NCBI GenBank assembly: GCA_963758525.1
Contig: CAVWVQ010000003.1
Location: 32,001-96,000, forward strand
Source: an uncultured Phycisphaerales bacterium
GTDB lineage: Bacteria > Planctomycetota > Phycisphaerae > Tepidisphaerales > Tepidisphaeraceae
DNA length: 64,000 nt
Direction of reading: 5' to 3'
The notes below the pieces were generated by a model. That model had not been told where the DNA came from. It did not search any database and saw only the letters and a program-made list of their open reading frames with translations. A program made the translations under genes and the position numbers. Below, piece by piece: positions 48,029-63,338 of this stretch. Positions within the stretch are counted from its first letter, which is position 1. Each line of letters begins with the position of its first letter.

Positions 48029-48913
48029 TTATAAGGGAAACAGCAGGGGTTGCGCAGGGTTCGCCGTGATGGCGTCGATGCGCGAAAATCCGACGATGCG
48101 ATCAAGCTTGAATGTCCGCCGTTCGTTTCGCAATTGGCAGTGGGCGACGAGGATCAATTCCCCGGCCACGCGGCGCACGTGCAACGGCTCGATCGCGCGC
48201 TGCGTCCGAAAGTCACGCGCATCGATATAGTCCATCATGACCGCGCACTTTTGTTCCAGCGCCTCCTCAAGCTCGAGCGGCAGCATCCTCTGGCGCGGCT
48301 TGAGCGGTAAAAGCCCCATTGGGCCGCCCTGCGCCTGAATGACGTCGCAGAGCATTGCGTGCCAGCCGCCGATCGGCTCCAGCAACCGGCCTAGAACATT
48401 GGCGGTGGTTTGCGCATCGGCCAGGGCACGATGCGCGCCCGATGGAATCACTCCCAGCCGCGGCGCCAACCGCTGCAATCCATTGCCGCCGCGCCCGAAG
48501 CGACGCCGGGCGATACGAACCGTATCAAGAACGGGCACGGCTCCCAGAGTTTCTTGAATATCAAACCCCGACCGGCGAAATTCTCGATGCAGAAATGACA
48601 GATCAAAGCGAATGTTGTGTCCGACGACGATCGCGCCGCGAAGGAAAGCAAGGGCGGGAACCAACTGGTCGCAAAATTGCGGCTGGCCGATGACCATTTC
48701 GCTGGTGATTCCCGTCAGCGCAGTGATGCCGGCGCTGATGGGCCGGGCGGGATAGATCAGTTGCTGATATTCCCCGACAACCTGGCCGCCTTCGATCCGG
48801 ACGATGCCCAGCTCGATGACCCGGTGCCCCAGATCAGCCGACGCCCCGGTGGTTTCCACATCCAGGATCGCCAGCGGAATTTCCAACAGTGGTTGTAACA
48901 GTGAAAACGACAT
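48029..48913 (-). CDS. DEDDh 3'-5' exonuclease fused to a C-terminal WYL domain
   Basis: ILDVETTG, VGHNIRFDLSFL, LDT, HRALADA; then DY..RTQRAIEPL..LVAHCQLRNERRTFKLDRI. Confidence 0.85.
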   Translation of the reverse strand: MSFSLLQPLLEIPLAILDVETTGASADLGHRVIELGIVRIEGGQVVGEYQQLIYPARPISAGITALTGITSEMVIGQPQFCDQLVPALAFLRGAIVVGHNIRFDLSFLHREFRRSGFDIQETLGAVPVLDTVRIARRRFGRGGNGLQRLAPRLGVIPSGAHRALADAQTTANVLGRLLEPIGGWHAMLCDVIQAQGGPMGLLPLKPRQRMLPLELEEALEQKCAVMMDYIDARDFRTQRAIEPLHVRRVAGELILVAHCQLRNERRTFKLDRIVGFSRIDAITANPAQPLLFPL

Positions 48914-49037
48914 TGCCGACAGCACACTCCATTGGCTGACGTCCACCCTCTTCCCCGCAATGCCTCCGTGCCCCCTCACATCCCTTACTTCCTCACCCTT
49001 CGTGCCTACGTGCCTTCGTGCCTTCCTCCCCTTCCCC

Positions 49038-49511
49038 CTACATCTCCGTCCCAATGATAGTCGACTCAAAGACCAGGCTGCCGTCGACGACCCCCTGAAT
49101 TTTGGAGCAAAATCTGCGGTGACGCACCCATTGCTTCTGCCCCACCAGATAGAGCCGCTGCCCCGGGCGGACAGCCTGGCGGAATCGAATCGCGTCGGCT
49201 CCCCCGAAGCCGATGAATCCCTGCCATTTCTCGTATTTGCGAACGTAAAACGAGGCGAGCTGAGCCCCCGCTTCGATCATGAGCACGCCAGGAAGCAGCG
49301 GGTTGCCGGGGATGTGGCCCGCGACCCAAAACTCGTCGGCCCGCGCATCCTTGTAGCCGATGATCCGTCCCAGTTCTGGCGCGGTATAGACAATCCCGTC
49401 GAGTTGCTCCATGTCCCCGCGCTGCAGATTGCAGCGGCGAATCTCCTCCTGATCGAACACAACACGGCTCAGGTCGATGACGGAGATGTCGTAGAGCAGT
49501 TGCGGCGGCAT
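49038..49511 (-). CDS. fabZ: FabA/FabZ-family hotdog dehydratase
   Basis: EFWVAGHIPGNPLLPGVLMIEAGAQL, FRQAVRPG. Confidence 0.8.
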   Translation of the reverse strand: MPPQLLYDISVIDLSRVVFDQEEIRRCNLQRGDMEQLDGIVYTAPELGRIIGYKDARADEFWVAGHIPGNPLLPGVLMIEAGAQLASFYVRKYEKWQGFIGFGGADAIRFRQAVRPGQRLYLVGQKQWVRHRRFCSKIQGVVDGSLVFESTIIGTEM

Positions 49512-50989: not shown

Positions 50990-52125
50990 TTATTGGTAAT
51001 CGAGCGTCCCGGCTTTATCGGGTTCCGGCCCATCGCCCGGGCGCTCGAGCCGGCCGTTGCGAAGCACCAGCACGCGATCCGCCTTGCTGGCGACGCTGCG
51101 GTCGTGAGTGACCATGACAATCGTCTGCCGCTGCTCGCGATGCAGGCGTTCGAGCACCGCCATGATCTGCCCGCCGGTTTCAACATCGAGATTGCCGGTC
51201 GGCTCATCCGCGAAGAGAACGCGCGGGTTGTTCATCAGCGCCCTCGCGATCGCAACCCGCTGGCGCTCGCCGCCGGAGAGTTCGCTAGGCTTGTGCTTCA
51301 GGCGCTCGGCAAGCCCTACTTCCGTCAGGACCTCGGTCGCCCGCGCCTTCAGCGCCGGCTTGTCCCGAAGATACCGCAGCCAGGAGCGCTCGACCATCGC
51401 GGGCATCAGCGCGTTCTCAAGTACATTCAACTCCGGCAGCAGATGATAAAACTGAAAGACGAACCCAAACGAGTTGGTTCGCAGTTCGCAGACGGGTCGT
51501 TCCGCAATATAGCCGGCAATCGCCAGGTAGATTGCAAATACAACAGGCGGCGCCACTTCGATTGCTGTCCGGAGCCACCACGTCACATTCGCCGCTTCCA
51601 GGCACCACTCCGCCCCTGCAAAGACCCACGCGGCAGCAATCAGCAGCAGCATTCGCTCCGATTTCTTGAACAGCGCCACTGCCACCCAAATCAGGGTGAT
51701 CACCGGCAGCGAGATTCGCACAATCGGGACGAGCGGGATCAGTGCCATTGCGCTCATGATGGATACTGCAACAATAGCCTCGATCCACATGCGAACTCGA
51801 AGCGGAATAGCCAAAAGCCCTCGAAACGGCGTGGGATACAGCCACCCTTTGGGGTTGGCGGCATATCGTGCTCCCTCGAATTCCAGCGTTCCTGCATCGG
51901 GCACATCAAGACCGCCCATGATGTGCAGCAGAGTGCTCTTGCCGGAGCCGGATTTTCCTTCGATCGCGACGAACTCCCCTTCCCGCAGCGTCAGGTCGAC
52001 AAGTTTGAGAATCTGCAGCACGTCGCGGCCGGTTTCGTAAGTTTTTTTCAATCCCTTGTGCGCAGAATCGTCGGCCGCTCCGACCGGGAGGATTGCACCG
52101 CTGTTTGAGAGACCACTTGCGACAT
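50990..52125 (-). CDS. lolD: LolD-type ABC ATPase with a large hydrophobic insertion (start frameshift near 52056)
   Basis: GKSGSGKST, GFVFQFYHLLPELNVLEN, LSGGERQRVAIARAL, ADEPTGNLD, VTHD; follows lolC/E. Confidence 0.88.
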
Positions 52126-52144: not shown

Positions 52145-52330
52145 GTAGGGCGGGATTCATCCCGCCGCAGGTTTAGCTTAGAGCCAGTTTCAGAACTTGC
52201 GCAGGCGCCGCCACCTGTTTAGCCGCACCGCGCAGCAAAGCGCGTCCTGACGGATCGCTGCCAAAGGTCCATAAAACGTCGCTCGGCGCGCTTCGCTGCG
52301 CGGCGCGGCTAAACAGGCTCCGAATGGACC
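52145..52330. repeat. GTAG REP plus second copy of the 8721-8885 MITE-like element
   Basis: GTAGGGCGGGATTCATCCCGCC; TTA-GAGCCAGTTTCAGAAC..TTTAGCCGCACCGCGCAGCAAAGCGCGTCC..GCGCTTCGCTGCGCGGCGCGGCTAAACAGGCTC. Confidence 0.75.
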
Positions 52331-52344
52331 CACGGTCGCAAATT

Positions 52345-54132
52345 TTACTCCCACCGCAGCGATTCCACGGGATTTTTTCGCCCTGCCGCGATCGCCGGAA
52401 TCAACGCGCCCAGCACGCTGGCCAGGATCGCGATCGGCACAATCCATTTAATGTCGGTCGCGCTCATCTGGTTGGGAATCTTGTCGAACAGATACACCTC
52501 CGGATTCCAGATCTGCACGTGAAACTGCCGGCCCAGCCATGCGTGCATTTCGTTGATGTAATGCACGATGAGATAGCTGACCAGCAGGCCCAATCCGCTG
52601 CCGATGAGCCCGATGGTCAAGCCGTACCACAGGAAAATGCCGGCGACGCCCGCCGAGCTGGCGCCGACGCTCTTGATGATGCCGATATCCCGCGTCTTCT
52701 CCAGCACGATCATGTAGAAGATGCAGAAGATCAGGAAGATCGCCACGATGCTGATGACGCCAAACAGCATCACCGTCAGCATCTTCTCGTTCTCGATCGC
52801 ATTGATCCAAACCGCCTGGCTCTCCAGCCACGTCTCGACGTACGGATGGCCGGTTCCGGTGATGTTTGTCCCCTCGTGCGACAGTTCCACCGCGTCGACT
52901 TGCTTCTCAATCTCGTCGCGCGCGACGGCCAGCGACGCGTCGTCGGTGAATCCGGGCTTCATGCGGACATGAATTTCCGTCGTTCGCGCGGGAATTTTGA
53001 TCTTCTCCCCCGTGTCCAATGTCGCGTCCTGCGCATTCATCCCCAAATCCGACTGGAGCTGAGCGAACGACACGTAAACGTAGTTGTTGTCGTATTGCCA
53101 GATTTGCGTTCGGCTGTCGTCCACGAGCCAGTAATTTCGCTCGGACCGGTTGTTGATATCCGGGCTCGACTCCCCGGGATGAAATCCCAGCACCGTCAGC
53201 TTCAGCGGTCGGCCATAAATCCCCGGATCGTCCGGCAACGGCAGCCGCGGCCCAAGCGGCGACCCCCACGTCCCCGTCTTGTCGCGCTGAATCCCGATCA
53301 CGCCGATGCCGACGATCATCCCCGGCCATTTCGTGACATCCTGCCGCGTGCGCGGCACCAGCGACTGGTAATCGATCACCTCCCCGCTGTTGGAAATCGC
53401 GAAGAGCTGGTCGACTGCCTGCTTGAACTGCGCATCCTGCGACAATCCCCGCAGCAGCAGCCGATCCTCCGGCCCCATGATCCCCTTGAACATCAGCTTC
53501 CCCGCCTGCGGATCAAACCAGAATCGCGACGCCAGGCTTTCGGGGAGATTTGCCTTTCCCACTGAACCTTGAACCCTGAACTCTGAACCCTCCTTCGCGA
53601 GCCGAACATCGCCCGGCATATTTTTAAGCGGCACGCCGCACCGATCCAGCAGATCGAACGACGCGGGCTGCTTCAGTTGTTCCTGGAGCTGCGCCCGCAG
53701 CTCGGGCGAGAGCTTCGGGTCGGCCAGCATCTCTTCGAGGTTGGTGTGCTGCCGAAACAGCGAATCCGGAAACCGGTTCACATTTCCGATCTGCTCGATG
53801 GGAATGCCGATCACCTTCACCGCCGCCGTCGGGTATGGCCCGACATTCAGCAGACCAAACGTCTCGATGCTGGGGACCGCCGCCGCCACGCCCGGCACCT
53901 GCAGGATCTTGTCCATCATCTCCTGATAATACGGGAATCCCGTCAGCGAAGAGCTGCGCACGATGATGTCGCCGGTGAGTCCGTGGAACGACTGCTTGAA
54001 CATGTTGAGCCACCCGCCCATGACGCTGATGACCACCAGCACCATGGTGGTGCAAAGCATCACCGCCGCGAGGGAAACCCAGGCGATTCGGCGCTTGAGG
54101 AGGTATTTGAGGATGAGGAGGAGTTTGTACAT
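52345..54132 (-). CDS. LolC/E-type lipoprotein-releasing ABC permease with an enlarged periplasmic domain
   Basis: VVISVMGG, MIVLEKTRDIGIIKSVGAS, IWNPEVYLFDKIP, PAIAAGRKNPVESLRWE; lysS-lolC/E-lolD order. Confidence 0.88.
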   Translation of the reverse strand: MYKLLLILKYLLKRRIAWVSLAAVMLCTTMVLVVISVMGGWLNMFKQSFHGLTGDIIVRSSSLTGFPYYQEMMDKILQVPGVAAAVPSIETFGLLNVGPYPTAAVKVIGIPIEQIGNVNRFPDSLFRQHTNLEEMLADPKLSPELRAQLQEQLKQPASFDLLDRCGVPLKNMPGDVRLAKEGSEFRVQGSVGKANLPESLASRFWFDPQAGKLMFKGIMGPEDRLLLRGLSQDAQFKQAVDQLFAISNSGEVIDYQSLVPRTRQDVTKWPGMIVGIGVIGIQRDKTGTWGSPLGPRLPLPDDPGIYGRPLKLTVLGFHPGESSPDINNRSERNYWLVDDSRTQIWQYDNNYVYVSFAQLQSDLGMNAQDATLDTGEKIKIPARTTEIHVRMKPGFTDDASLAVARDEIEKQVDAVELSHEGTNITGTGHPYVETWLESQAVWINAIENEKMLTVMLFGVISIVAIFLIFCIFYMIVLEKTRDIGIIKSVGASSAGVAGIFLWYGLTIGLIGSGLGLLVSYLIVHYINEMHAWLGRQFHVQIWNPEVYLFDKIPNQMSATDIKWIVPIAILASVLGALIPAIAAGRKNPVESLRWE

Positions 54133-54162: not shown

Positions 54163-54685
54163 TCAGAACTTGCCGTCTGCGGATGCTTCGGCCGAGCGTT
54201 CATTTGGCAGCTGTTGCCTCCGCGGGTCCGCTGATTGGTGAGTGGAACATGGCAAAGCGTCTGCGTTCGGTGCGTCGTTCAGTTGAATATTCTTCCGTCG
54301 CTCGTTGGCAGCCATACGGATCAACAACTTTGCCAATTGCGTCATGATTCCGATCCTATGGGCGGTTACTTTGGAGCCCAGCACGGCTCGTGCCTTGAAA
54401 TACCAGTCCCGAGTTTCGCGCGGAGCCGAGTGCGTACTCATAAAACCTCGCGCGGTCGCGTCCACTCCCGCGTGAGTAGCCTTCCGCGACGTTTGAACTA
54501 ATGTTGCCTGCTGCGCGACATAATTGGTCGGCGGTGGACTTGGCGCGGGCGTCGCGCATTAGCTTCGCGCCGTCATTCCAAGCCAGATCAGACGCAAACA
54601 GTCCAAGTCGGTACGCCTCCATCTTCCAAACAGAGTCACCTCGAATCTCCTCCGGAACCTGCTTCTCCCAGTCATCAAATGTCAC
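54163..54685 (-). CDS. Four helix bundle protein (TIGR02436 / 23S rRNA IVS protein / Avd-like), frameshift near 54420
   Basis: WKMEAYRL, ADQLCRAAGNISSNVAEGYSRGSGRDRARFYEYALGSA then RETRDWY. Confidence 0.85.
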
Positions 54686-62390: not shown

Positions 62391-63338
62391 ATGTACCCCG
62401 ACCTCTTCAAAATCCCCTTCACCAACTTCCCCGTCCACAGCTTCGGCGTCATGCTCGTGCTCGGCTTCATGCTGGCCATGGCGCTGGCGAAGTTTCTGGC
62501 ACGGCGCAGCAACCTGGACCCGGAAATCTTTGCCAACGCGGCGCTGATCGCCCTGCTCTCGGGCGTCGTGGGCGCGCGGCTTTCCCACGTCATCGAAAAC
62601 TGGCATCAGTACACCGACCCGACTCGCTCAGCGTGGGCAAACTTCCGCGAAGCGGTCAACATCACCGAGGGAGGGCTCACCTATTACGGCGGGTTTTTGA
62701 TGGCGACGGTCAGCTGCATCGGCTACGGCCTGTGGAAACGCGTGCCCATCCGCCTGGGAATGGACATCCTCGCACCGTGCATCATGATCGGCCTGGGATT
62801 CGGCCGCATCGGCTGCTTCCTCAACGGCTGCTGCTTTGGCGCTCAGTGCAATCTGCCGTGGGCGGTGGAGTTTCCGTATCACAGCTATGCGTTCATGGAC
62901 GAATACTCAAAGAACCAGCTCAAGACCAACGTGCCGGATGAGGTCCTCGGGCCGCCCAACATCTGGGGCGAGCGGTATCCGCTGCCGGTCGAGCAGGTTG
63001 GGCCGCAGCCCGAGCTGAAATCAAATCCGCTTCATCCGGCGCAGCTCTACAGCACCTTTACGGCATTGCTGCTCGCGGCGCTGCTCTACGCCTATTTCAC
63101 GCTCCCCCACGTTCCGGGGCGCGTCTTCGCGCTGATGATGGGTCTGGAGGGGATTTGCAGATATTTGCTGGAGCTGGTGCGCGATGAGCCGCGCGACTAT
63201 CTCAATCACACGGCAAGCCTGGGAATGGTGCAGGGCATTCTGATCTGTACCGGAGGATTGGCGTTGTGGGCGATTTTCGGGGCGATGCATCCAAGAAAGC
63301 CAGTCGCGCAACGAACTGGACCACCACTCACGACGTAG
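62391..63338 (+). CDS. lgt: Prolipoprotein diacylglyceryl transferase
   Basis: SFGVML, VGARL, GGLTYYGG, GRIGCFLNGCCFG, HPAQLY, RYLLELVR. Confidence 0.95.
   Translation: MYPDLFKIPFTNFPVHSFGVMLVLGFMLAMALAKFLARRSNLDPEIFANAALIALLSGVVGARLSHVIENWHQYTDPTRSAWANFREAVNITEGGLTYYGGFLMATVSCIGYGLWKRVPIRLGMDILAPCIMIGLGFGRIGCFLNGCCFGAQCNLPWAVEFPYHSYAFMDEYSKNQLKTNVPDEVLGPPNIWGERYPLPVEQVGPQPELKSNPLHPAQLYSTFTALLLAALLYAYFTLPHVPGRVFALMMGLEGICRYLLELVRDEPRDYLNHTASLGMVQGILICTGGLALWAIFGAMHPRKPVAQRTGPPLTT

What the first reader, a model, noticed from the sequence alone, without database searches (positions are those of the whole stretch)
51488..51871. LolD ATPase with a ~115-aa, four-helix hydrophobic insertion inside the nucleotide-binding domain
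Seen: between ..TLEFEG and ELRTNSFGFVFQ there are 128 residues in an unbroken frame, where LolD normally has about a dozen. They contain four hydrophobic stretches (WIEAIVAVSIMSAMALIPLV, ISLPVITLIWVAVALF, MLLLIAAAWVFAGAEWCL, VAPPVVFAIYLAIAGYIA). Walker A/B, Q-loop, signature and H-loop are all intact. An even helix count would return the chain to the cytoplasm. Known: LolD is a soluble ATPase. Inference: a membrane-integrated LolD variant adding a TM module to the lipoprotein exporter; only one, enlarged, LolC/E partner is present.
Basis: partly seen in the sequence, partly recalled or inferred. Interest (0 to 1): 0.75.

Follow-up and report, generated by a model that had tools for sequence, protein, structure and literature searches.

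The report
Lipoprotein-exporter ATPase with built-in membrane helices
The ATP motor (LolD) of the likely outer-membrane lipoprotein exporter of this uncultured planctomycete carries four predicted membrane helices inside its normally soluble catalytic domain, and about one in six related genomes carry largely dissimilar inserts at the same spot, which likely tether the motor to the inner membrane.

Summary
Confirmed, and larger than reported. LolD (50990-52051, minus strand) has a 116-aa insert at E. coli LolD positions 72-79, just before the Q-loop; the catalytic motifs are intact. It is not a chimera: homologous inserts (33-54% identical) occur in independent assemblies. AlphaFold2 gives four confident helices, the last continuous with the native pre-Q-loop helix, and charges fit in-out-in-out-in.

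New here: 23 of 129 family (Tepidisphaeraceae) genomes have an insert at this exact site: 12-55-aa short or amphipathic, two-helix, or four-helix. The types are mostly dissimilar in sequence, scattered over 14 genera (10 changes forced on the LolF tree), fast-evolving but hydrophobic, and 17 of 17 helix-type inserts share a junction tyrosine. LptB has none (0 of 126).

Most likely the insert is a lipid-facing anchor gained repeatedly; a gate or accessory role is not excluded. Membrane insertion and function are untested. My paper searches found no description. This scan noted nested helices earlier in other ABC families, on other DNA, but not in LolD.

The parts
50990..52051 (-). lolD main frame (353 aa from TTG): MacB/LolD-type ABC ATPase with insert
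   Evidence: (best NCBIfam family TIGR02211, 234 bits, cut-off 307.75)
52052..52125 (-). Natural N-terminus of LolD in another frame; one base is missing near 52057-52059, likely an assembly slip
   Evidence: (extra base in contigs of X1 and X2)
51932..51958 (-). Walker A
   Evidence: sequence
51488..51871 (-). Region with the 116-aa insert, between the last strand before and the helix leading into the Q-loop strand (E. coli LolD 72-79)
51794..51871 (-). Basic, Pro-rich linker before helix 1, conserved in the four-helix clade; holds the junction Tyr63 (51863-51865) shared by 17 of 17 helix-type inserts
51734..51793 (-). Predicted membrane helix 1 (about residues 87-106)
51668..51721 (-). Predicted membrane helix 2 (about 111-128), followed by the charged loop with conserved Glu132
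51599..51652 (-). Predicted membrane helix 3 (about 134-151), the weakest by hydropathy (1.63)
51503..51571 (-). Predicted membrane helix 4 (about 161-183), continuous with the native pre-Q-loop helix through a Glu-Arg-Pro junction
51437..51466 (-). Q-loop stretch (GFVFQFYHLL)
   Evidence: sequence
51365..51385 (-). Second, family-wide 7-aa aromatic and basic insertion in the helical subdomain relative to E. coli LolD; possibly membrane-touching
51266..51280 (-). ABC signature LSGGE
   Evidence: sequence
51203..51220 (-). Walker B with the catalytic Glu
   Evidence: sequence
51104..51106 (-). H-loop His316
   Evidence: sequence
52345..54132 (-). lolF (LolC/E-type permease, 595 aa, four membrane helices); the only orthologue found in the genome
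52214..52317 (.). Intergenic inverted repeat between lolF and lolD (31-nt arms, 94%); not followed up

Best explanation
This is the cell's likely LolDF lipoprotein exporter, whose ATPase LolD carries a real 116-residue insert that is predicted to form four inner-membrane helices and likely acts as a lipid-facing tether beside an unchanged LolF dimer. SHOWN: the insert, its site, intact catalytic motifs, the absence of a second lolD in this assembly, conservation in a clade, and recurrence of dissimilar inserts at the same site in 23 of 129 family genomes. PREDICTED: the chain leaves the ATPase after a surface strand, runs along a basic Pro-rich linker, crosses the membrane four times (in-out-in-out-in), and returns through a helix continuous with the native helix that leads into the Q-loop. 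INFERRED: because the Q-loop face docks on LolF's elbow and coupling helices (PMC13575116), this loop lies next to the inner leaflet, so it tolerates and holds hydrophobic growth, from short amphipathic pieces to hairpins to four helices. The anchor would keep LolD in the membrane and near LolF while the ATP-driven extrusion stroke stays as in ordinary LolDF. Helix-type inserts most likely arose several times (about ten on the tree), each with the same junction tyrosine.
For: Inserts of very different sequence occupy one site, which fits a physical role rather than a specific partner. Insert dN/dS is 0.21-0.68 vs 0.08-0.14 in the core (6 pairs with finite dS), and only 24 of 241 changed hydrophobic positions became charged or polar. 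Lys/Arg sit before helix 1 and in loop 2, and are nearly absent in loops 1 and 3, across 7 homologues. Helix counts are 2 or 4 in the long inserts. Two AlphaFold2 models of dissimilar inserts both end in a helix continuous with the native one. LolF is unchanged in length and helix number. The label needs 10 changes on the LolF tree, all forced by starred branches, and 11 on LolD+LolF, where one clade is rejected (p-AU 1.6e-5). LolD cores of helix-insert genera are no more alike than expected from LolF (177 of 300 shuffles as high). Controls: 0 of 126 genomes with an LptB match show an insert; among 60 ABC ATPase frames of this genome, only LolD reaches hydropathy above 1.5 between Walker A and B where that could be measured.
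Against: No topology predictor, experiment or complex model was run, and I could not inspect model coordinates. Helix 3 is weak, and a 19-residue scan finds only 2-3 segments in 5 of 7 four-helix homologues. About 82% of family genomes do without an insert, so any benefit is small or conditional. On LolD alone, one origin of the helix-type inserts is not rejected (p-AU 0.155). The shared tyrosine (17 of 17 vs 3 of 75; independent pairs 7.5 of 8, p 0.008) could mean common origin rather than convergence. The four-helix clade keeps about 20 invariant residues near the membrane surface, more than a bare anchor needs. Lipoprotein export by this complex is inferred from homology and gene order only.
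Confidence: 0.58

Rival explanations
1. The inserted helices are an accessory membrane subunit. They pack against LolF and, being rigidly joined to the helix before the Q-loop, pass ATP-driven motion to the membrane or tune which lipoproteins enter, working like the Wzt gate helix or LptC's helix in LptB2FGC (the latter recalled).
For: The last helix is continuous with the native pre-Q-loop helix in both models. Junction and juxtamembrane residues are conserved. An Asp in LolF's C-terminal helix occurs in 8 of 18 insert-bearers and 0 of 49 others, and that helix contacts LolD (PMC13575116). A precedent exists for an NBD extension at the membrane acting at the substrate entry (PMC6379404, passages).
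Against: At least nine short or two-helix inserts show no significant similarity to any other. The membrane segments diverge fast. The LolF Asp holds in only 2.6 of 9 independent pairs (p 0.25) and came out of 1790 tests. Insert presence does not track Lnt (6 of 23 vs 9 of 21, p 0.34).
Confidence: 0.2
2. Nearly neutral growth: the loop sits at the membrane and tolerates inserts, selection only weeds out those that cannot fold or insert, and there is no benefit.
For: 106 of 129 genomes lack it, and in 7 of 14 genera with an insert a congener lacks one. Length runs from 12 to 119 aa and dN/dS reaches 0.68. G003 sits inside a clade of insert-bearers without one, a possible loss.
Against: The same junction tyrosine in 17 of 17 helix-type inserts, retention across at least two genera at 33-54% identity, and the absence of inserts in LptB point to constraint. 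Constraint on folding alone could also give these patterns.
Confidence: 0.14
3. Same anchor role, but the helix-type inserts have one origin and spread between lineages by exchange of a short piece of lolD, then diverged beyond recognition. This concerns origin only and overlaps with the best explanation, so its confidence does not add to the others.
For: The N-junction (Phe 16 of 17, Tyr 17 of 17, Thr 11 of 17) and C-junction (Arg 13 of 17, Pro 9 of 17) are shared. One clade is not rejected on LolD alone. The window's LolD is closer to genus g2 (0.73) than to its congener G001 (0.67), while its LolF is closest to G001.
Against: There is no excess similarity of LolD cores, near or far from the junction, among helix-insert genera. 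Several insert-bearing LolDs group with their insert-free LolF sisters.
Confidence: 0.3
4. The insert is a cytoplasmic helical bundle, or an assembly artefact or inactive gene.
For: There is a frame break near the start in this assembly. No RNA evidence was available.
Against: Hydropathy and charge pattern; independent homologues; a contig bridging the 3' junction and two contigs with the extra base; no other lolD found.
Confidence: 0.06

Closest known systems
LolDF (Acinetobacter; PMC13575116, PMC11784454) and E. coli LolCDE (PDB 7MDY, 7ARH; PMC8333309)
   Same: lolF-lolD gene order, one four-helix permease, and an ATPase whose best family, best solved-sequence hits and top fold matches include LolD. 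All catalytic motifs are kept.
   Different: LolD carries 116 extra residues with four predicted membrane helices at positions 72-79, plus a 7-aa family-wide insertion in the helical subdomain. None of the 20 solved sequences listed matches the insert. Both subunits score under the NCBIfam cut-offs.
MacB (type VII ABC transporter with the ATPase fused to its membrane domain)
   Same: The ATPase is tied to the membrane in one chain; same ATPase subfamily.
   Different: In MacB the membrane domain follows the complete ATPase and is the permease (established knowledge). Here the helices are nested inside the ATPase and a separate permease is kept.
Gate helix of Wzt/TarH (type V exporters; PMC6379404)
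   Same: An extension of the nucleotide-binding domain that sits at the cytosolic membrane surface.
   Different: The gate helix lies between strands 1 and 2, does not cross the membrane and is conserved. This insert lies before the Q-loop, is predicted to cross the membrane, and varies widely.
Nested-helix ABC ATPases noted earlier in this scan (OppD/OppF, LivG, sugar importers; unchecked AI notes)
   Same: Predicted membrane helices inside an otherwise soluble ABC domain.
   Different: Other transporter families and taxa. None of the listed notes concerns LolD, and none of the lines shown describes a graded series of dissimilar inserts at one site.

Membership tests
LolD (TIGR02211) | Whole-protein score above the curated cut-off | tested here: not met
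   234.3 vs 307.75 bits, matched in two stretches around the insert; still the best of 191 families. Insert-free relatives were not scored against the cut-off.
LolD (TIGR02211) | Intact Walker A/B, Q-loop, signature and H-loop | tested here: met
LolD (TIGR02211) | Soluble cytoplasmic subunit without membrane helices | tested here: not met
   Four hydrophobic helices predicted; by prediction only
LolDF | lolF-lolD gene pair with a single LolC/E-type permease | tested here: met
   The upstream permease's best family is TIGR02212 (153.6 bits, under its cut-off of 362.45); 721 bits vs 51 for the next frame on the family profile
LolDF | No other lolD orthologue in the genome | tested here: met
   373 bits on the family LolD profile vs 231 for the next frame. 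TIGR02211 ranks five unsplit paralogues higher, none over the cut-off. The genome is 91% complete.
Lol pathway | Lgt and LolA partners | tested here: inconclusive
   Lgt found. One LolA-family match lies among genes that look biosynthetic, judged by eye, and may not be the Lol chaperone. No LolA_like match; Lnt not found with TIGR00546.
Lol pathway | ATP-dependent release of lipoproteins to LolA | not testable with these tools
   Needs biochemistry
MacB-type fused ATPase-permease | FtsX-type permease fused to the ATPase | tested here: not met
   The insert has no Pfam match; the permease is a separate gene
Wzt/TarH gate helix | Extension between NBD strands 1 and 2 | tested here: not met
   The insert is after Walker A and before the Q-loop; gate helix position from PMC6379404
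Integral membrane protein | Helices shown to span the bilayer | not testable with these tools
   Hydropathy, charge bias and AlphaFold2 only

The most novel reading that the evidence does not exclude
A loop of the essential Lol motor is a hotspot for the birth of membrane domains. Tepidisphaeraceae have independently turned LolD into an integral membrane protein about ten times through a graded series (amphipathic piece, hairpin, four-helix bundle), each time locking the new helix rigidly onto the helix before the Q-loop with the same tyrosine. The new helices act as a third membrane component that couples ATP motion to LolF or sets lipoprotein selectivity.
Probability: 0.2. Interest if true: 0.82.

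Novelty: new variant of a known kind. Interest (0 to 1): 0.6.

Why it matters
LolD is described as a soluble subunit of an essential outer-membrane pathway that is also a current antibiotic target. A membrane-embedded form widens what the Lol machine can look like and points to a site in the ATPase that tolerates large inserts. The family offers a natural series of inserts from 12 to 119 residues at one position, with insert-free congeners as controls. That makes a general question testable: how new transmembrane domains arise inside soluble enzymes, and whether they are adaptive. Annotation also stumbles on these genes: one relative's stored protein begins inside the insert (P0009).

Tried and rejected
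Origin of the insert: no match at cut-off in Pfam for the window insert or 17 relatives' inserts. The four-helix profile found 3 proteins among 1.84 billion representatives, all LolD pieces, and 6 among the longer proteins scored, all ABC ATPases. The ESM Atlas gave no usable hit for the insert and only plain ABC clusters for P0006. No direct repeats or mobile-element-like ends were found around the insert. Insert GC3 is close to the core's (0.65 vs 0.75 here).

Complex prediction of the insert with LolF was not available, and the wide VIA fold search could not be run. Contact with LolF, and structural look-alikes of the bundle beyond Foldseek, therefore stay open.

Expression: no RNA holder listed.

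Correlates: none with LolF length, Lnt or LolA-family matches (17 of 23 vs 12 of 21). Independent-pair tests were run on the top 8 of 1790 residue tests; the output was partly cut, and none seen had a median p under 0.05.

A tblastn check of how often this assembly breaks frames was uninformative. A pattern scan of 21 phylum genomes was not used. The promoter/terminator scan gave nothing above shuffles. The careful tree of 98 LolD cores did not finish, so all trees are quick trees.

Papers: ten searches of the open library showed no listing on a LolD with inserted helices. Subscription papers and supplements were not seen.

Full report
OBSERVATION. The minus-strand ORF 50990-52051 encodes an ABC ATPase whose best NCBIfam family is LolD (TIGR02211, 234 bits, cut-off 307.75, two stretches), directly downstream of a 595-aa LolC/E-type permease. 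Walker A to GFVFQ spans 154 residues against 38 in most relatives, a 116-aa insert, which takes the place of E. coli LolD residues 72-79. The catalytic motifs are present. Hydropathy peaks are 2.46, 2.32, 1.63 and 1.83. AlphaFold2 (56 sequences, mean pLDDT 87.4) builds helices 84-102, 109-128, 132-154 and 158-194; the last runs on into the native helix before the Q-loop strand, and the linker 68-80 has low confidence. Foldseek returns MacB/LolD-type ATPases that cover only the core (TM by query about 0.56).

NOT AN ARTEFACT. Four other proteins carry a homologous insert at 39-54% identity; further ones came with a profile at 33-50%. P0006 is named Tepidisphaeraceae by its source and has the sequence of G156's LolD, which is how I name family f1. 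A contig of run X1 bridges the 3' junction with one mismatch; no listed contig covers the 5' junction. The N-terminal 24 codons (ATG 52125) are in another frame and match P0003 at 58%. Contigs of two runs of one study each carry an extra base there, at low depth, so the real protein is most likely 378 aa. This is the only lolD and lolF found in a 91% complete genome: 373 vs 231 bits and 721 vs 51 bits on family profiles.

THE WIDER PATTERN. Of 141 family genomes searched, 129 gave a LolD (127, two more). 23 have an insert at this site and 106 do not (83 read in sequence, 23 judged from match span; the unpublished G004 is one of the 106 and of the 126 LptB matches, and enters only these denominators). 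Of the 22 read in frame, 5 are short (12, 33, 33, 41, 55 aa; basic and aromatic, one with a single hydrophobic segment), 13 have two hydrophobic helices (64-116 aa) and 4 belong to the window's four-helix type (115-119 aa). G139 has a two-helix type broken by a frame change. All-against-all BLASTP links only five small groups and leaves nine singletons without a hit under 1e-4. Inserts occur in 14 genera; in 7 of them a congener lacks one, including both congeners of the window's genome. A second model, of a dissimilar two-helix insert (G077), shows the same design: a hairpin whose second helix continues into the native helix. Outside the family, about 110 listed best matches among 220 class genomes showed no large insert; the list was cut, and ten low scorers checked showed none, with one partial match (G350) not fetched. 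Two of 80 metagenome loci have an insert at the same site: L037 (40 aa) and L099 (62 aa, hydrophobic, in a more distant LolD). Control: 0 of 126 genomes with an LptB match show an insert; 15 genomes gave no match, and five of these checked showed no intact LptB.

EVOLUTION. On 67 genomes with both genes, the helix-type label needs 10 changes on the LolF tree, all forced by starred branches. All inserts need 11 changes on LolD+LolF, where a single clade is rejected (p-AU 1.6e-5). On the short LolD core alone a single clade of helix-type inserts is not rejected (p-AU 0.155), but LolD cores of insert-bearing genera show no excess similarity. The insert-free linker has the E. coli-like length in 71 of 75 and is general outside the family, so I take no insert as the ancestral state (inference). 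One residue tracks the helix-type inserts: a tyrosine at the start, 17 of 17 against 3 of 75, in 7.5 of 8 independent pairs (p 0.008). I noticed it in the data before testing it. It is either convergence for packing or the trace of a short shared tract. Inserts evolve faster than the core (dN/dS 0.21-0.68 vs 0.08-0.14, six pairs, several near saturation) but stay hydrophobic (24 of 241 changed hydrophobic positions became charged or polar). In seven four-helix homologues Lys/Arg number 2-4 before helix 1, 0-1 in loop 1, 1-3 in loop 2 and 0-1 in loop 3, as expected for in-out-in-out-in.

THE PARTNER. LolF keeps its length (median 500 vs 498) and helix pattern with or without the insert. A single lolF before lolD is described as the most common layout (PMC11784454, passages; PMC9963962, passages). 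The best LolF association, an Asp in the C-terminal helix (8 of 18 vs 0 of 49), holds in only 2.6 of 9 independent pairs. Insert presence does not track Lnt or LolA-family matches. Lgt lies in the window. The genome's one LolA-family match may belong to another pathway.

MECHANISM. In LolDF the Q-loop of LolD meets the elbow and coupling helices of LolF (PMC13575116, passages; likewise LolCDE, PMC8333309, passages). The insert sits one helix before that loop, so I infer that it starts near the inner leaflet. The simplest reading is a tether: the chain leaves the ATPase, crosses the membrane an even number of times and returns, making LolD an integral membrane protein that stays near LolF, with the extrusion stroke unchanged (0.58). 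Dissimilar, fast-changing, hydrophobic sequences in front of an unchanged LolF fit lipid contact better than a specific partner. The rigid join and the conserved membrane-surface residues leave room for an accessory subunit acting on LolF (0.2), in the manner of the Wzt gate helix (PMC6379404, passages). Neutral tolerated growth (0.14) and a non-membrane or dead gene (0.06) are less likely. No complex model, topology predictor or experiment backs any of these.

NOVELTY. It works like LolDF and meets the gene-order and motif tests, but not the soluble-subunit feature or the curated score cut-offs: a new variant of a known kind. Ten searches of the open paper library showed no listing on such a LolD; I saw listings and passages only, no whole texts or supplements (PMC8386196, passages, added only the type VII classification). 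Earlier notes of this scan report nested helices in other ABC families (28 notes hold the words, 8 shown), and none was found for LolD; they are unchecked and are not support. What stands out here is the essential pathway, the single hotspot, the graded series and the shared tyrosine. Interest 0.6.

Noticed in passing
window 51365-51385 and family LolDs: Nearly all family LolDs have a 7-aa aromatic and basic insertion in the helical subdomain relative to E. coli. G061 and G063, which have a 33-aa amphipathic insert at the main site, have lost most of it, as has insert-free G129.
   Followed up: partly
L099:298-1203 and L037:180-1046: Metagenome LolDs with 62-aa hydrophobic and 40-aa Trp-rich inserts at the same site, both after a lolF end; L099 is a more distant LolD.
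   Followed up: partly
L066, L068, L070, L084, L092, L106: Other LolDs with 9-35-aa hydrophilic inserts near the same region, one with two Cys-x-x-Cys pairs (L092). Genomes of family f14 show about 15 extra residues.
   Followed up: no
G000 and 43 family genomes: Lnt is patchy: over the cut-off in 15 of 44 genomes, and not found in G000 or its two congeners.
   Followed up: partly
window 52214-52317: Inverted repeat with 31-nt arms (94%) in the lolF-lolD gap.
   Followed up: no
window 54356-54685: Small ORF matching the 23S rRNA intervening-sequence protein family, between lysS and lolF; it may be frame-broken.
   Followed up: no
window 48029-49069: DEDDh exonuclease fused to a C-terminal WYL domain.
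   Followed up: no
window 62403-63272: lgt, about 8 kb from lolF on the other strand.
   Followed up: partly
L221:1474-2901: The genome's only LolA-family match sits beside ORFs that look by eye like a radical-SAM enzyme and a dehydratase, so it may not be the Lol chaperone.
   Followed up: partly
G000:C3:55614-56426 and C6:3099-3911: An ABC ATPase frame of the same length and score on two contigs; C6 may duplicate part of C3.
   Followed up: no
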